DNA from: a virus
Direction: 5' to 3' (one strand)
Length of the DNA stretch: 64,000 nucleotides
Virus record (IMG/VR): IMGVR_UViG_3300045988_094037
In this document: piece after piece, positions 43,072 to 47,630 of the stretch
Layout of the letters: every line of letters begins with the position of its first letter
How positions within the stretch are numbered: position 1 is the first letter of the stretch
Translations under genes and position numbers: made by a program
Notes under the pieces: generated by a model
What the model was told of the DNA's origin: nothing
Databases searched by the model: none
Seen by the model: only the letters and a program-made list of their open reading frames with translations

Positions 43072-43608
43072 ATGTATAGACTTCTTGTGATTGTAGATGC
43101 GCAGAATGATTTTATTACTGGTTCTTTGGGATCTAAGACAGCGGATGCCGCGGTTCCTAATATCGTTAATCTAATTAAACGATTCTGTTGGGAGGAAGTT
43201 ATTTGTACCATGGATACCCATGATAATGATTACTTTGATACTTTGGAAGGAAAAAGACTTCCCATTAAACATTGTATCAAAGCAAGTGTGGGCTGGTGTA
43301 TGGATTCCAGAATTATGGTTGCGTTGAATAACAAATTTAACTATTATGAAAAAGATACCTTCGGCAGTACTGATATGGTCAATGAAGTATACGATTCTCT
43401 AAAAATGAAGAATCCCGAGGAAGTAGAAATTCATATCTGTGGATTTTGTACCGATATTTGCGTTATGGCTAATGCAGTTATGCTTCGTGCGGCGATGCCA
43501 AATACTAGAATTATCGTCCATTCTAGTGCGTGTGCAGGAGTAACTCCAGAATCGCATGAAGCAGCGCTAACTATTTTCAAAGCCCAGCAGATTGATGTGG
43601 AGGATTAA
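43072..43608 (+). CDS. pncA: isochorismatase-family nicotinamidase
   Basis: LLVIVDAQNDF and the catalytic Cys context ICGFCTDICV. Confidence 0.65.
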   Translation: MYRLLVIVDAQNDFITGSLGSKTADAAVPNIVNLIKRFCWEEVICTMDTHDNDYFDTLEGKRLPIKHCIKASVGWCMDSRIMVALNNKFNYYEKDTFGSTDMVNEVYDSLKMKNPEEVEIHICGFCTDICVMANAVMLRAAMPNTRIIVHSSACAGVTPESHEAALTIFKAQQIDVED

Positions 43609-43611
43609 AAA

Positions 43612-44424
43612 ATGATTAGTCTAATTAATACACGCAGTCATTGGACAGACGTAATTGAACAAAATCATTTTCCAGATGGTACGCTGCATATTAACATGCC
43701 TCCCAACTACTTCGATTATGATACGATTGTTTGGGAGTACGAGAATGATGCAGAATTATTTACTCTCATTTGTGTTAAGGGACATTTCGAAGATTTCCCT
43801 GTAAACCTAGATATGCTATATATTCCTCATGCAAGGATGGATCGAGTTCAAGAACTTGAAGATGTATTTACTCTAAAATACTTCTGTCAAGTAATTAATA
43901 GCCTTCATTTTGATAAAGTTATTGTGCGTGATGCTCATTCTAATGTATCGTTAGCTCTACTTGATAGAGTTATTGATCTTAGTCCAATTGGAGAAATCAA
44001 AGAGGCTATTAAGAGAACTGAGGAATATGAAGGAGAAATTCCTATCCTATTTTTCCCAGATGAAGGAGCGATGAAGAGATATTCTGCTCCACCCATTAGT
44101 CTTCCTTATGCTTTTGGAATTAAGAAAAGAGATTGGTCTACTGGAAAAATTCTTGGTTTGCAATTAATGAATGAGGAAATTGTTAAAGAGAGAAATGTCT
44201 TAATTGTAGACGATATTTGCTCTCGTGGTGGAACTTTTTATCATGCAGCAAATGCCCTCAAAGAAGCTGGCGCAAAGAATGTTTATCTGTATGTGACCCA
44301 TGCAGAACATACCATGATTGAGGGTGATATGTATAATCAAGATATTGTGAAGAAAATCTTCACTTCTGATAGCATCTTCAAGCCAGAGTGGGATATTAGA
44401 GGAAAGGTAGAGATTGTAAGATGA
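43612..44424 (+). CDS. ribose-phosphate pyrophosphokinase (PRPP synthetase)-like protein
   Basis: PRPP-binding VLIVDDICSRGGT motif with an N-terminal FPDGTLHINMP domain; could be an Adps-like enzyme. Confidence 0.55.
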   Translation: MISLINTRSHWTDVIEQNHFPDGTLHINMPPNYFDYDTIVWEYENDAELFTLICVKGHFEDFPVNLDMLYIPHARMDRVQELEDVFTLKYFCQVINSLHFDKVIVRDAHSNVSLALLDRVIDLSPIGEIKEAIKRTEEYEGEIPILFFPDEGAMKRYSAPPISLPYAFGIKKRDWSTGKILGLQLMNEEIVKERNVLIVDDICSRGGTFYHAANALKEAGAKNVYLYVTHAEHTMIEGDMYNQDIVKKIFTSDSIFKPEWDIRGKVEIVR

Positions 44425-44870
44425 CGATTGAGAAACTTCAAGAGTTAAAGATTATGGCTCTTAAAAATGGAGATATGAATACAAAGAGGGTGCTTTCTGA
44501 TATGATTGATGCGTGTCAGAAAGCAGCCATTACTCCAAAAGGAAGAGTTGAATTAACTGAGCAGCTAGTTGATGAAACCCTTATCAAATACCAAAAGACA
44601 GTACAAGAAATGATTGATACCTGTCCTGCTAGTTATCCTGAAAAATTACATCAGTATCAAGAGGATATGAAGGTCGTAAAGATGTGCGCCCCTCAGCTTA
44701 TTACTGATAAGGCAGAAATTGAAACAAAAGTAAGAGAGATTGCGGGAACCGCAGGTATTGATCTCCTCAAAGCAAATCGTGGTACGCTTATGAAATCTGT
44801 TTCTATGGAGCTTAAAGGTAAGGTAGATATGAAGATTGTAAGTGCTGTTGTTGGAGGGTTGTTAAAGTGA
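44421..44870 (+). CDS. GatB/YqeY-domain protein
   Basis: Resemblance to YqeY over the full length. Confidence 0.5.
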   Translation: MTIEKLQELKIMALKNGDMNTKRVLSDMIDACQKAAITPKGRVELTEQLVDETLIKYQKTVQEMIDTCPASYPEKLHQYQEDMKVVKMCAPQLITDKAEIETKVREIAGTAGIDLLKANRGTLMKSVSMELKGKVDMKIVSAVVGGLLK

Positions 44871-45236: not shown

Positions 45237-45268
45237 AAAAGCCCTCATAAAGAGGGCTTTTTATTTTT
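45237..45268 (+). terminator. rho-independent terminator
   Basis: aaagccctcataaagagggcttt followed by TTATTTTT. Confidence 0.65.
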
Positions 45269-45318
45269 ATAAAAATATATGATATAATATATTTAAGAAA
45301 TAAGGAAAGGAAGATTTT

Positions 45319-46908
45319 ATGAGTTTCTTTGATGTAGCTCCAATGTTTGCCGCTGACTACTACAAAGTTGGTCATGCTATTAAGATGCAGCCGAAGTCTG
45401 CCTCTATGGTTTATTCTACTTGGACAGCTCGCAGTTATAAGCACCATCCAAATTGCCCTAAGACAGTGGTCTTTGGTCATCAATATACCATCCAGAAACT
45501 GCTTGAATTTTGGCAGACAGAGTTCTTTGATCAGCCAGTTGAGCTTCTTGAACAGGAGTGGAATCATGTAATTAAAAATACTTTCCATCCTGATTATGCG
45601 GATTTTACCAAGTTTAAAGAATTGCATAAACTTGGTTATTTACCTATTTCTATCATGGGAGTTCCAGAGGGTACGCTTCTTCCCGTCGGGATTCCAGATC
45701 ATGTAATTTTTTCTAATCATCAAAATTTTGCGTGGCTTCCGCAATTTATCGAAGATCAGTGGAGCGCTAATAACTGGCTCCCCTCGACTTCTGCCACTAC
45801 CGCTTTTTATCGCCGCAAGTTAATTGAGCCTTATGTCAAGACTAGTTGCGACGATATGTCTGCTCTTCCGCATATGTGTGGCGACTTTTCTCTGCGCGGA
45901 CACACAAGTCTTGAGGCAGGCTATATCTCCGGGGCTGCCCATGCTCTTTCTTTTGATAGAACTGCAACCATTGGCTCTAACCTTCTCCTTGAAAAATACT
46001 ATGGAGCAGATCTTGAGAATAATCCTCCCATGATGGGAACTCCTTCTCTTGAACACTCTGTTGTTGAACAAGGTGTAGCTTGGATGAAGCAGAAGATTAC
46101 TAATGGAGATTTAACTGAAATTGAGCGTTATCTTTTCTCTAAGGCCGCTTTTGATAATTGGGATATTAACCTTATTGCAGAAATGCTTTTTATCAATTAT
46201 CTTTGCATAGAAGTGCAACCTACTGGAACTATGACTTATGTATCAGATACATATGATTATTGGGGTATTGTATCTAAGGTTCTTCCCATGTTGCATGATG
46301 TTATTGCAACAAGAGATGGATGTTTCTCTGTACGACCTGATAGTGGAGACCCAGTAAAGATTATCTGCGGCGACCCAGATGCTGTACCCGGTTCTCCTGA
46401 GTTTATAGGAACTTTAAATCTTCTAAAAGAAATCTTTGGCGGTGAATTGAATACTAAAGGATATTTTATTCTTCCTTCTTATATTCGTATGATTTATGGA
46501 GATGCCATTACTCCAGAGATTACTGAAAAAGTTTGCTCTTGGTGCGTTAGAAATAATATCTCAGTATCCAATCTATGTTTTGGAATTGGAGCTTATACTT
46601 ATCAGTATGTAACTCGTGATACTAGAGGCTATGCTATTAAAGCTACAGATTGTATCCTCGGCAATGATGAAATTCAGATTTATAAAATGCCTAAAACCGA
46701 CCCTGGGAAAAAGTCTCCTCGTGGATGTGTTGCAATTTTTAAAGAGGAGAATGGCGATTATTCTTTAGTAGAAAATCTTACTCTTGAAGAATCCATTGGA
46801 TATAAGAACAATGTAATGAAATTTAAAGTCAAGAATGGAAGTTTCTGTACGGAGAGCGTAGAGACTATCGAAACTATTAAAGAGAGATTGATGGGAGAAG
46901 TTCTATGA
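45319..46908 (+). CDS. nadV: nicotinamide phosphoribosyltransferase family protein (NadV/NAMPT-like; possibly a Namat-like ADPR transferase)
   Basis: 529 aa with an NAMPT-family fold signature (N-terminus MFAADYYKVGHA; PRTase type II). Confidence 0.7.
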   Translation: MSFFDVAPMFAADYYKVGHAIKMQPKSASMVYSTWTARSYKHHPNCPKTVVFGHQYTIQKLLEFWQTEFFDQPVELLEQEWNHVIKNTFHPDYADFTKFKELHKLGYLPISIMGVPEGTLLPVGIPDHVIFSNHQNFAWLPQFIEDQWSANNWLPSTSATTAFYRRKLIEPYVKTSCDDMSALPHMCGDFSLRGHTSLEAGYISGAAHALSFDRTATIGSNLLLEKYYGADLENNPPMMGTPSLEHSVVEQGVAWMKQKITNGDLTEIERYLFSKAAFDNWDINLIAEMLFINYLCIEVQPTGTMTYVSDTYDYWGIVSKVLPMLHDVIATRDGCFSVRPDSGDPVKIICGDPDAVPGSPEFIGTLNLLKEIFGGELNTKGYFILPSYIRMIYGDAITPEITEKVCSWCVRNNISVSNLCFGIGAYTYQYVTRDTRGYAIKATDCILGNDEIQIYKMPKTDPGKKSPRGCVAIFKEENGDYSLVENLTLEESIGYKNNVMKFKVKNGSFCTESVETIETIKERLMGEVL

Positions 46909-47630
46909 CTAATACGGTTACTAAAATTATAGATTGGATTAAAGAGTATTTCATAAAAAACGGGCCGGAGTGTAAAGCTGTTATCGGGATTTCTGGCGGC
47001 AAAGATTCTACAGTGGCTGCGGCTCTTCTTTGTAAGGCTCTTGGCCCGAATCGAGTAATTGCCGTACAAATGCCACAGGGATTCCAATATGATATTGATG
47101 TTTCTAATGAGGTAATTGATTACCTCGAAATTACAGAGCATTACAACATCAATATTGGTTCATCTTGTCAGGAGATTTTCTTGTCTTTGCCCAATGATAT
47201 TAGAATTCAGCCGCAAGTTACAAGTAATGTTCCAGCAAGAGTAAGAATGAATATCCTTTATGCAATCGCCGCGAGCCGTCATGGAAGAGTTGTGAATACT
47301 TGCAATAGAAGTGAAGACTATGTAGGCTATTCTACTAAATTTGGAGATGCAGCAGGAGATTTTTCTATTCTCTCTAATTATACTGCCACGGAAGTTAAAG
47401 AAATTGGTATTGAGCTTGGATTGCCAAAGAACTTCATTGAAAAGCCTCCAGAGGATGGATTAAGCGGTTTAACAGATGAGGAAAATTTAGGATTTTCTTA
47501 TGATGTCCTAGATAATTTCCTACTTAATGGTATTACTCCTCCATATGAGATATATAAAAACATTGAACAAAGACATAAGAGAAATTTACATAAGATTTCC
47601 CCTATGCCAACTTGTCCATTCTTTTCTTAA
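46905..47630 (+). CDS. nadE: NH3-dependent NAD+ synthetase
   Basis: PP-loop GISGGKDST. Confidence 0.7.
   Translation: MTNTVTKIIDWIKEYFIKNGPECKAVIGISGGKDSTVAAALLCKALGPNRVIAVQMPQGFQYDIDVSNEVIDYLEITEHYNINIGSSCQEIFLSLPNDIRIQPQVTSNVPARVRMNILYAIAASRHGRVVNTCNRSEDYVGYSTKFGDAAGDFSILSNYTATEVKEIGIELGLPKNFIEKPPEDGLSGLTDEENLGFSYDVLDNFLLNGITPPYEIYKNIEQRHKRNLHKISPMPTCPFFS

What the first reader, a model, noticed from the sequence alone, without database searches (positions are those of the whole stretch)
43072..47630. NAD+ salvage / reconstitution module (PncA, PRPP-synthetase-like, YqeY, NAMPT-family, NadE), possibly an anti-defence NARP-like pathway
Five consecutive genes encode a nicotinamidase, a Prs-like phosphoribosyl pyrophosphokinase, a YqeY-domain protein, a NAMPT-family enzyme and NAD synthetase. 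A Prs homologue (Adps) paired with a NAMPT homologue (Namat) is the published phage NARP1 pathway, which rebuilds NAD+ from ADP-ribose and nicotinamide after NAD-depleting defence systems (Thoeris, DSR, SIR2 types) fire; PncA and NadE would add a conventional route. The combination of both routes in one operon is notable.
Basis: partly seen in the sequence, partly recalled or inferred. Interest (0 to 1): 0.55.

Follow-up and report, generated by a model that had tools for sequence, protein, structure and literature searches.

The report
Deamidated NAD-rebuilding pathway in a gut phage
This gut phage carries a four-enzyme set that most likely rebuilds NAD+ from its breakdown products by way of nicotinic acid rather than nicotinamide, a route that none of my ten searches of the held paper library turned up and that is shared with Clostridia and several other gut phages.

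Summary
The five genes are real and sit at the stated coordinates. The Prs-like and NAMPT-like proteins are Adps and Namat relatives, not housekeeping Prs or Nampt. The Namat-like enzyme keeps the published adenine clamp that selects ADPR-PP. It has lost the aspartate that binds the nicotinamide amide: SpβL1 Asp215 (human Asp219) is Ala216 here. Two more pocket residues are also changed.

Across 137 dereplicated Namat loci, all 25 with Ala or Ser at that site form one clade. All 25 have a nicotinamidase gene beside them and 17 also have NadE. None of the 112 Asp or Glu loci has either gene. One relative fuses Adps to PncA. Clostridial copies are chromosomal and lie beside NrtR, a family shown elsewhere to be an ADP-ribose-responsive regulator.

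Best reading: PncA converts nicotinamide to nicotinate. Adps converts ADPR to ADPR-PP. The altered Namat joins nicotinate and ADPR-PP to give NaAD. NadE amidates NaAD to NAD+. Adps and Namat would thus replace PncB and NadD. The chemistry is inferred and has not been assayed.

YqeY and the neighbouring phosphatases are not conserved parts. I found no description of this variant in the library. Verdict: a new variant of NARP1.

The parts
43072..43608 (+). PncA-like nicotinamidase, 178 aa (an alternative TTG start lies at 43036). Proposed step 1: nicotinamide + H2O gives nicotinate + NH3.
   Evidence: Pfam isochorismatase 5.5e-20. Nine of the ten PDB sequence hits are nicotinamidases/pyrazinamidases or carry a generic isochorismatase label, including P. 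horikoshii, M. tuberculosis, A. baumannii, S. pneumoniae and yeast; the tenth, 6kua, is labelled cysteine hydrolase. The alignment to P. horikoshii PncA keeps the catalytic Asp9, Lys94 and Cys130 and the metal ligands Asp48, His50 and His67. It falls below the NCBIfam cut-off for E. coli-type PncA. A homologue sits beside every Ala/Ser-class Namat.
43612..44424 (+). Adps-like ADPR pyrophosphokinase, 270 aa. Proposed step 2: ADPR + ATP gives ADPR-PP + AMP.
   Evidence: phrog_619 1.7e-66. Scores 158.6 bits against verified pfAdps (L148), against at most 61.6 bits for solved Prs. Scores 80 bits against TIGR01251, below its cut-off of 113. The catalytic-loop motif G-x-K-x-R-D-W-x-T-G (Lys171-Lys172-Arg173) and the DDICSRGGT loop are conserved.
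44421..44870 (+). YqeY-domain protein, 149 aa. Probably a passenger and not a conserved part of the module.
   Evidence: PF09424 7.4e-9. Present only in the window's own subclade, 2 of 25 dereplicated Ala/Ser-class loci. No similarity to the 139-aa gene at the corresponding place in Phass-1.
44867..45235 (+). Small two-TM membrane protein gene, frameshifted in this window (44867-44986, then 44987-45235).
   Evidence: Single intact 122-aa ORF in L002 and L004 at 7549-7917. Two pieces here. No Pfam hit.
45237..45261 (+). Terminator-like hairpin that ends the first transcription unit.
   Evidence: 10-bp stem with 5 GC pairs, followed by a T-run. AT-rich promoter-like sequence follows at 45266-45293. 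This is a consensus match only.
45319..46908 (+). Namat-family transferase, 529 aa, with an altered pyridine pocket (Gly188, Ala216, Gly240, Ser243). Proposed step 3: nicotinate + ADPR-PP gives NaAD + PPi.
   Evidence: Best PDB sequence and fold match is SpβL1 Namat 9w5x/9w5w (323 bits; TM 0.93). The SCH clamp G424-A-Y-T-Y-Q-Y-V-T-R-D434 fits the Namat motif, whereas Xcc Nampt has GGALLQKVDRD. The catalytic residues Asp13, Tyr15, Phe190, Arg193, His246 and Arg339 are kept. The Asp215 equivalent is Ala216. The AlphaFold model has pLDDT 91.
46905..47630 (+). NH3-dependent NAD synthetase NadE, 241 aa, single domain. Proposed step 4: NaAD + ATP + NH3 gives NAD+.
   Evidence: PF02540 4.4e-46. TIGR00552 157 bits against a cut-off of 63.65. 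SGGxDS motif at 30-35. Its start overlaps the Namat stop by 4 nt. Adjacent to the Ala/Ser-class Namat in 17 of 25 dereplicated loci, including all seven of those that come from a phage or viral collection.
47628..47653 (+). Terminator-like hairpin that ends the second unit.
   Evidence: 11-bp stem followed by a T-run.

Best explanation
The block encodes a deamidated version of the phage NAD+ reconstitution pathway NARP1. It has four steps.

1. PncA deamidates nicotinamide to nicotinate.
2. Adps pyrophosphorylates ADP-ribose to ADPR-PP.
3. The Namat paralogue keeps the adenine clamp for ADPR-PP but has a remodelled pyridine pocket (Asp to Ala, Ala to Ser, His to Gly). It couples nicotinate to ADPR-PP and gives nicotinate adenine dinucleotide (NaAD) directly.
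4. The NH3-dependent NadE amidates NaAD to NAD+. It can reuse the ammonia that PncA releases.

Adps plus the altered Namat would therefore do the job that PncB plus NadD do in the Preiss-Handler route, starting from ADPR instead of PRPP and ATP. In the phage, the likely use is to restore NAD+ after NAD-cleaving defences release ADPR and nicotinamide.

What is shown: gene identities, motif states, co-occurrence, the gene fusion and co-inheritance. What is inferred: the nicotinate specificity, NaAD as the intermediate, and the anti-defence role.
For: 1. Namat membership with a changed pocket. The SpβL1 Namat structure is the best sequence and fold hit. The SCH clamp motif is present. The residue aligned to Asp215 is Ala216.

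2. Published function of that residue. Asp215 hydrogen-bonds nicotinamide, and D215A cuts NAD+ output 8.1-fold (PMC12774641). Human Asp219 defines nicotinamide specificity. D219A abolishes activity and D219S switches substrate affinity (PMC7096376, PMC12143786, PMC4919578).

3. Where the classes differ. Only 5 of about 497 alignment columns separate the Ala/Ser class from the Asp class: G186C, H187G, D215A/S, S239G and A242S in SpβL1 numbering. Two of these (D215, A242) are among the 7 published nicotinamide contacts (hypergeometric P = 0.0017).

4. Co-occurrence. A PncA gene is adjacent, on the same strand, in 25 of 25 dereplicated Ala/Ser loci and in 0 of 112 Asp/Glu loci. NadE is adjacent in 17 of 25 against 0 of 112. 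Fisher's exact test on the PncA table gives P = 6e-28, without correction for shared ancestry. Four further subclades show the same set.

5. Gene fusion. An Adps::PncA fusion protein is encoded in L185.

6. Co-inheritance. Pairwise identities of the four genes correlate at r = 0.86-0.95, down to about 30% identity, through three different gene orders.

7. Bracket logic. Phage scaffold MT835470 carries PncA-PncB-NadE-(AAA)-NadD-like-Nudix. The window has Adps and Namat where that scaffold has PncB and NadD. No PncB or NadD was found among the window ORFs scanned.

8. Regulation in bacteria. In 13 of the 25 dereplicated loci, all but one of them Clostridium, the operon sits beside NrtR. NrtR family members were shown to bind their operator DNA, with ADP-ribose as the proposed effector (PMC2330246).

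9. Rarity of PncA in phages. PncA homologues occur in only 9 of 50,697 phage records, whereas Namat-family genes occur in 2009. Ordinary NARP1 phages therefore lack PncA genome-wide.
Against: - No enzyme assay exists for any Ala/Ser-class member. Substrate specificity is inferred from alignment positions and gene context.
- All Ala/Ser members form one clade. The residue-context correlation may therefore rest on a single evolutionary event, and the Fisher P value overstates independence.
- The deamidated route costs one more ATP than NARP1, and I have no demonstrated advantage for it.
- The PncA-like protein is far below the NCBIfam nicotinamidase cut-off. Its function rests on conserved catalytic and metal residues.
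- Eight of the 25 loci lack an adjacent NadE.
- Adps and Namat are in different probable transcription units here.
- Only 64 kb of a roughly 146-kb genome was examined for PncB and NadD.
- The anti-defence role is untested. The bacterial copies look like housekeeping genes.
Confidence: 0.6

Rival explanations
1. Two parallel routes. Adps and Namat form an ordinary NARP1 that joins nicotinamide to ADPR-PP to give NAD+. PncA and NadE separately boost the host Preiss-Handler route, using host PncB and NadD.
For: The Adps and Namat identities and the adenine clamp are as in NARP1. The two pairs lie in different probable transcription units. Another residue, such as Ser243, could take over amide binding.
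Against: PncA would destroy Namat's own substrate. The natural Ala at the Asp215 position matches a mutation that lowers nicotinamide-dependent output 8-fold. Strict co-occurrence, the Adps::PncA fusion and co-inheritance are not expected for independent routes. None of the 112 Asp/Glu-class loci has PncA or NadE beside it.
Confidence: 0.15
2. A Preiss-Handler module with its own PRPP supply. The Prs-like protein makes PRPP. The Namat-like enzyme acts as a nicotinate phosphoribosyltransferase and gives NaMN. Host NadD then makes NaAD, which NadE amidates.
For: The pocket changes fit nicotinate use. Namat can use PRPP in vitro when ADPR-PP is absent. NCBIfam names the nearest model 'nicotinate phosphoribosyltransferase'.
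Against: The adenine clamp aromatics, which are needed only for ADPR-PP, are conserved in most of the class; L018 has Leu at position 3 and the L011/L089 subclade has a long insertion in the clamp. The Prs-like protein is far closer to verified Adps than to Prs, and SpβL1 Adps does not make PRPP. Clostridial copies lie beside NrtR, whose proposed effector is ADP-ribose. No NadD accompanies the module, although a conventional phage module does carry one.
Confidence: 0.12
3. The isochorismatase-family protein is not a nicotinamidase. It hydrolyses another amide or ester linked to ADPR or NAD metabolism, and the pocket change in Namat has a different cause.
For: The score against the curated E. 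coli nicotinamidase model is only 21 bits against a cut-off of 174. A relative also hits biuret amidohydrolase weakly.
Against: Nine of the ten PDB hits are nicotinamidases or carry a generic isochorismatase label, and the nicotinamidase-specific metal site (Asp-x-His...His) plus the Asp/Lys/Cys triad are conserved. The pairing with NadE fits deamidation followed by re-amidation.
Confidence: 0.05

Closest known systems
NARP1 (Adps + Namat; phages Bas63, SpβL1, Fado; Osterman et al., 10.1101/2024.02.11.579819; Lan et al., PMC12774641)
   Same: A Prs-derived Adps lies next to a Nampt-derived Namat. The Namat adenine clamp (SCH motif) and the catalytic His, Arg and Phe residues are kept. SpβL1 Namat is the best sequence and fold match. 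The expected input is ADPR and the expected output is NAD+.
   Different: The nicotinamide-binding Asp215 is Ala, Ala242 is Ser and His187 is Gly. A nicotinamidase is always adjacent and NadE usually is. The predicted pyridine substrate is nicotinate and the predicted product is NaAD, with one extra ATP spent. There is a 41-aa helical insertion after the catalytic His in this subclade. Adps and Namat are separated by two genes and a terminator.
Extended NARP1 operons: NARP1-AP (Macro-domain ADPR-1''P phosphatase Adpp; 10.64898/2026.01.28.702374) and RyDEP-linked NARP1 (10.64898/2026.05.28.727677)
   Same: Accessory enzymes are built into a NARP1 locus and feed or extend the core pathway.
   Different: Those accessories work on the ADPR side and leave Namat unchanged. 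Here the accessories work on the pyridine side, and the core transferase itself is altered. No Macro or RyR-domain gene was seen in the block.
Preiss-Handler deamidating salvage (PncA-PncB-NadD-NadE), for example phage scaffold MT835470 (L016) and the Clostridium acetobutylicum NrtR regulon (PMC2330246)
   Same: It starts with PncA and ends with NadE. NaAD is the expected penultimate intermediate. Some bacteria control it through NrtR.
   Different: PncB and NadD are absent. Adps and an altered Namat sit in their place, so the ribose-phosphate-adenylate part would come from ADPR rather than from PRPP + ATP.
NARP2 (Nampt + Nmnat, phage KVP40) and NARP3 (PnuC + NadR; PMC13464706)
   Same: These are phage-encoded routes that restore NAD+.
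   Different: No Nmnat, PnuC or NadR was found in the window. The transferase has the Namat clamp, not the Nampt loop. One relative (L186) carries a PnuC plus NadR-like pair next to the four-gene set.
Bacterial nrtR-prs-nadV operons (Shewanella, Acinetobacter; PMC2330246) and bacterial NARP1 (Paenibacillus foliorum; PMC12774641)
   Same: These are chromosomal Adps-Namat pairs, some linked to NrtR.
   Different: In my sample those are Asp-class and have no PncA or NadE beside them (L143, L148, L155, L159).

Membership tests
NARP1 | First enzyme belongs to the Adps branch of the Prs family, not to housekeeping Prs | tested here: met
   158.6 bits against verified pfAdps (L148), against at most 61.6 bits for any solved Prs. 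Below all NCBIfam Prs cut-offs. phrog_619 1.7e-66. No tree with Prs outgroups was built.
NARP1 | A Namat homologue lies within about 10 genes of Adps | tested here: met
   The two genes are 895 nt apart on the same strand, with YqeY and a small membrane-protein gene between them.
NARP1 | [quoted passage not shown] | tested here: met
   The window has G424-A-Y-T-Y-Q-Y-V-T-R-D434, with Ala in place of Ser at position 2. SpβL1 has GSFTYQYNTRD. Xcc Nampt has GGALLQKVDRD.
NARP1 | SCL loop supplies a stacking residue (third residue Arg, Lys or Tyr) | tested here: inconclusive
   Lys41 aligns with SpβL1 Arg40 and is followed by His42. This fits the Lys-type pattern described in PMC12774641, but the loop limits were not defined structurally here.
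NARP1 | Nicotinamide pocket with Asp215 hydrogen-bonded to the amide (also Ala242) | tested here: not met
   Ala216 and Ser243 occupy these positions, and Gly188 replaces His187.
NARP1 | Conserved catalytic core (Asp13, Tyr15, Phe189, Arg192, His245, Arg306 in SpβL1 numbering) | tested here: met
   Asp13, Tyr15, Phe190, Arg193, His246 and Arg339 are present.
NARP1 | Activities: ADPR + ATP gives ADPR-PP; ADPR-PP + nicotinamide gives NAD+; rescue from SIR2/TIR/SEFIR defences | not testable with these tools
   This needs enzyme assays and infection experiments.
Preiss-Handler salvage (PncA-PncB-NadD-NadE) | Nicotinamidase with an Asp/Lys/Cys triad and a metal site | tested here: met
   Asp9, Lys94 and Cys130, plus Asp48, His50 and His67, align to P. 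horikoshii PncA.
Preiss-Handler salvage (PncA-PncB-NadD-NadE) | PncB-type NAPRTase (NAPRTase_N + NAPRTase domains) | tested here: not met
   None was found among the window ORFs scanned. The only NAPRTase-family protein is the Namat-like one. PncB is present in the contrast locus L016. The rest of the phage genome was not seen.
Preiss-Handler salvage (PncA-PncB-NadD-NadE) | NadD (NaMN adenylyltransferase) | tested here: not met
   No cytidylyltransferase-like hit among the window ORFs of at least 130 aa that were scanned. About nine such + strand ORFs, including most that contain TAG, were not scanned. Only 64 kb of about 146 kb was examined.
Preiss-Handler salvage (PncA-PncB-NadD-NadE) | NadE NAD synthetase | tested here: met
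   TIGR00552 157 bits against a cut-off of 63.65.
NARP2 | PRPP-preferring Nampt plus an Nmnat in the same genome | tested here: not met
   The clamp is Namat-type, Adps is adjacent, and no Nmnat was found in the window.

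The most novel reading that the evidence does not exclude
A four-enzyme NAD+ reconstitution pathway that I could not find described. It contains a new enzyme activity, nicotinate:ADPR-PP transferase, which makes NaAD in one step. A Namat paralogue with a re-tuned pyridine pocket carries it out. The pathway is ancient and chromosomal in Clostridia and Oscillospiraceae, in many cases beside the regulator NrtR, and large TAG-recoded gut phages have captured it, presumably to survive NAD-depleting immunity.
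Probability: 0.58. Interest if true: 0.78.

Novelty: new variant of a known kind. Interest (0 to 1): 0.7.

Why it matters
NAD+ depletion is one of the most common bacterial anti-phage strategies, and NARP1 is the main known viral answer to it. If this reading is right, it has four consequences.

- It adds a new reaction to NAD biochemistry: nicotinate + ADPR-PP gives NaAD.
- It shows that the NARP1 core can be re-tuned at the pyridine site. Three or four residues could serve as a sequence rule for telling nicotinamide-type enzymes from nicotinate-type ones.
- It would account for a conserved operon beside NrtR in many Clostridia, as an ADP-ribose and niacin recycling route.
- Anti-defence annotation tools that call every Adps-Namat pair 'NARP1' would be merging two chemistries.

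The prediction can be tested directly with four purified proteins and LC-MS.

Tried and rejected
- Megablast of the block against GenBank phages found nothing. Protein-level search was needed to find Phass-1 at 69% identity.
- The three calcineurin-like phosphatases near the block (38839-39597, 47711-48442, 49883-50446) were considered as analogues of the NARP1-AP phosphatase. Their homologues are not consistently linked to Namat loci outside the window's own subclade. The one beside PncA in L016 is unrelated to 47711-48442. I rejected them as module parts.
- YqeY was considered as a fifth component. It occurs only in the window's subclade, and the 139-aa gene in Phass-1 is unrelated. I rejected it.
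- I asked whether Ala/Ser at the Asp215 position arose several times. The neighbour-joining tree puts all such sequences in one clade, so independent origins cannot be claimed.
- The structure model confirms the fold and shows that the 41-aa insertion is helical and confidently predicted. It cannot show ligand preference. The insertion is absent from the clostridial and L011 subclades, so it is not tied to the pocket change.
- Literature searches for NARP1 with nicotinamidase, PncA, NadE, NaAD or deamidation, and for NARP4 or NARP5, found no description. The only NaAD plus ADPR-PP hit in this field is the unrelated NARP3 paper. The library lacks most subscription-journal papers, so absence is not proof.

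Full report
**The observation**

The window holds five + strand ORFs at exactly the stated coordinates.

- 43072-43608: isochorismatase/nicotinamidase family protein (PF00857, 5.5e-20).
- 43612-44424: Prs-like protein (phrog_619, 1.7e-66).
- 44421-44870: YqeY protein.
- 45319-46908: 529-aa NAMPT/NAPRTase-family protein (phrog_448, 2.6e-130).
- 46905-47630: NadE (PF02540, 4.4e-46; TIGR00552 above its cut-off).

They are not strictly consecutive. A 122-aa membrane-protein gene lies between YqeY and the NAMPT-like gene. It is intact in relatives but frameshifted here. It is followed by a strong terminator-like hairpin at 45237-45261. A second such hairpin at 47628-47653 closes the block.

**The setting**

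The window is from a large phage. It has 31 tRNA genes, including a CTA-anticodon suppressor. Several + strand genes have in-frame TAG codons. The nearest GenBank relative is the human-gut phage Phass-1, filed under 'Caudoviricetes code 15 clade'. IMG/VR holds relatives at 69-99% identity on contigs of 93-146 kb. All of them keep PncA, Adps, the NAMPT-like gene and NadE.

**Adps and Namat, not Prs and Nampt**

The Prs-like protein scores 158.6 bits against the Adps of Paenibacillus foliorum (L148). That enzyme was shown biochemically to work in NARP1 (PMC12774641). The best solved Prs scores only 61.6 bits, and every NCBIfam Prs model is below its cut-off.

The NAMPT-like protein's best solved relatives, by sequence and by fold, are the SpβL1 Namat structures 9w5x and 9w5w. 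They give 323 bits and TM 0.93, against about 138 bits and TM 0.90 for human NAMPT.

The protein carries the published Namat signature in the selectivity-clamp helix, G-S-X-Φ-X-Φ-X-Φ-T-R-D with aromatic residues that stack on adenine. The window has GAYTYQYVTRD, SpβL1 has GSFTYQYNTRD, and Xanthomonas Nampt has GGALLQKVDRD.

**The unexpected point**

The residue aligned with SpβL1 Asp215 is Ala216. Three published observations bear on this residue.

- Asp215 hydrogen-bonds the nicotinamide amide, and D215A lowers NAD+ production 8.1-fold (PMC12774641).
- Its human equivalent, Asp219, is described as the determinant of nicotinamide specificity (PMC7096376, PMC12143786).
- D219A is listed as loss of activity and D219S as a switch of substrate affinity (PMC4919578).

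All 119 full-length best hits in the 5.8-billion-protein search share the Ala. They include chromosomal Clostridium proteins.

**Comparative test**

I collected 186 loci. They came from GenBank phages, IMG/VR, one genome per bacterial species, and contigs that encode specific hits. I scored their neighbourhoods with HMMs built from seed genes.

After dereplication at 90% identity, 137 Namat sequences remained. The results were as follows.

| Residue at the Asp215 position | Loci | PncA adjacent | Adps adjacent | NadE adjacent | NrtR adjacent |
|---|---|---|---|---|---|
| Ala or Ser | 25 | 25 | 25 | 17 | 13 |
| Asp or Glu | 112 | 0 | most | 0 | not scored |

Before dereplication, the only Ala-class locus without PncA was L109, whose contig ends 120 nt upstream of Namat.

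Four further divergent subclades gave the same picture. One of them encodes a single protein with an Adps domain fused to a PncA domain.

The Ala/Ser class is one clade in a neighbour-joining tree. The association may therefore go back to one event, and the Fisher value of 6e-28 overstates independence. Even so, the set has been kept down to about 30% identity, through three gene orders and one fusion. Pairwise identities of the four genes correlate at r = 0.86-0.95.

Only five alignment columns separate the classes: G186C, H187G, D215A/S, S239G and A242S. Asp215 and Ala242 are two of the seven published nicotinamide contacts (P = 0.0017).

**Pathway logic**

The PncA-like protein keeps the nicotinamidase triad and metal site, and nearly all its solved relatives are nicotinamidases. 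NadE is a single-domain, ammonia-type enzyme.

A different gut-phage scaffold (MT835470) carries the conventional set PncA-PncB-NadE-NadD-like-Nudix. In the window, Adps and the altered Namat stand where PncB and NadD stand there. No PncB, NadD or Nmnat turned up among the window ORFs I scanned.

The simplest closed pathway has four steps:

1. Nicotinamide to nicotinate (PncA).
2. ADPR to ADPR-PP (Adps).
3. Nicotinate + ADPR-PP to NaAD (altered Namat).
4. NaAD to NAD+ (NadE).

Many clostridial copies lie beside NrtR. NrtR family members were shown to bind operator DNA of NAD genes, with ADP-ribose as the proposed effector (PMC2330246). That fits ADPR as the input. The nicotinate specificity, the NaAD intermediate and the anti-defence use in the phage are all inferences.

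**Rivals**

- Parallel routes (ordinary NARP1 plus help for the host's Preiss-Handler pathway). This does not explain the lost Asp, the strict linkage or the fusion.
- A PRPP-based nicotinate phosphoribosyltransferase module. This does not explain the largely retained adenine clamp, the Adps identity or the missing NadD.
- A non-nicotinamidase role for the isochorismatase-family protein. This is unlikely given the conserved residues.

**Comparison with what is known**

Known NARP1 extensions act on the ADPR side: the Macro-domain phosphatase Adpp and the RyDEP glycosidase. NARP2 uses Nampt plus Nmnat. NARP3 uses PnuC plus NadR. Searches of the held library for NARP1, Namat or ADPR-PP together with nicotinamidase, PncA, NadE, NaAD or deamidation found no description of this arrangement.

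I file it as a new variant of NARP1. It fails the defining nicotinamide-pocket feature, so it is not a plain member.

**Limits**

There is no biochemistry. The variant may have a single evolutionary origin. Only part of the phage genome was seen. The host and its defence systems are unknown. The benefit of spending one more ATP is unexplained.

Noticed in passing
window 31263-31338; 41553-42824; 19734-29811; 53716-55982: The phage appears to read TAG as an amino acid (code 15). It has a suppressor tRNA with anticodon CTA, which ARAGORN calls Pyl. The RNA ligase gene is one 423-aa ORF with one in-frame TAG. Eight other + strand ORFs, including tail-fibre-like and lysis-like genes, have 2-9 in-frame TAGs. 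The NAD genes have none.
   Followed up: partly
window 44867-45235: The small two-TM membrane protein gene between YqeY and Namat is frameshifted here but intact (122 aa) in IMG/VR relatives L002 and L004. It is either a pseudogene or an assembly error.
   Followed up: yes
window 38043-42824 and 47711-50446: The NAD block is embedded in RNA/tRNA repair genes: an RlaP-like nucleotidyltransferase, three calcineurin-like phosphoesterases, an RNase T-like exonuclease, an RNA ligase, a Thg1-like tRNA-His guanylyltransferase and a PNK-like kinase. A relative (L185) has a Tpt1/KptA 2'-phosphotransferase beside NadE. From what I know of that enzyme family, it consumes NAD+ and releases nicotinamide and an ADPR derivative.
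   Followed up: partly
window 32641-37014 and 50598-51494: An 813-aa protein has major-vault-protein shoulder and vault repeats plus a Band 7 region. It sits next to a DUF2828/DUF7788 protein. A separate SPFH/Band 7 protein lies further on. This is unusual phage cargo.
   Followed up: no
L016 (MT835470.1) 9061-15519: A different gut-phage scaffold carries a conventional Preiss-Handler set: metallophosphatase, PncA-like, PncB (NAPRTase_N + NAPRTase), NadE, AAA ATPase, NadD-like cytidylyltransferase and Nudix.
   Followed up: yes
L049, L051, L066, L071, L074, L094, L096 (IMG/VR): A third Namat class has Glu instead of Asp215 (motif G-S/T-E-T/S) and Ser in the clamp's T-R-D (KSRD or ASRD). It forms its own clade and is linked to Adps only.
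   Followed up: partly
L184 7675-8499; L186 533-2342; L185 4478-6001: Relatives add other NAD/ADPR genes to the four-gene set: a NADAR-domain protein between Namat and NadE, a PnuC transporter plus an AAA_28 NadR-like kinase (NARP3-like) upstream, and an Adps::PncA fusion protein.
   Followed up: partly
L017 9495-11640 (Clostridium beijerinckii): Two genes with no Pfam or NCBIfam match (349 and 307 aa) follow the NrtR-Adps-PncA-Namat operon, ahead of an adenylosuccinate synthetase gene. An adenylosuccinate synthetase gene also follows the set in L183.
   Followed up: no
window 10046-10759, 56441-62568: Other replication genes: uracil-DNA glycosylase-like (assigned by eye from a GQDPYH motif, not checked with a tool), RNase H, gyrase B-like and gyrase A-like subunits, and an ATP-dependent (not NAD-dependent) DNA ligase.
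   Followed up: no
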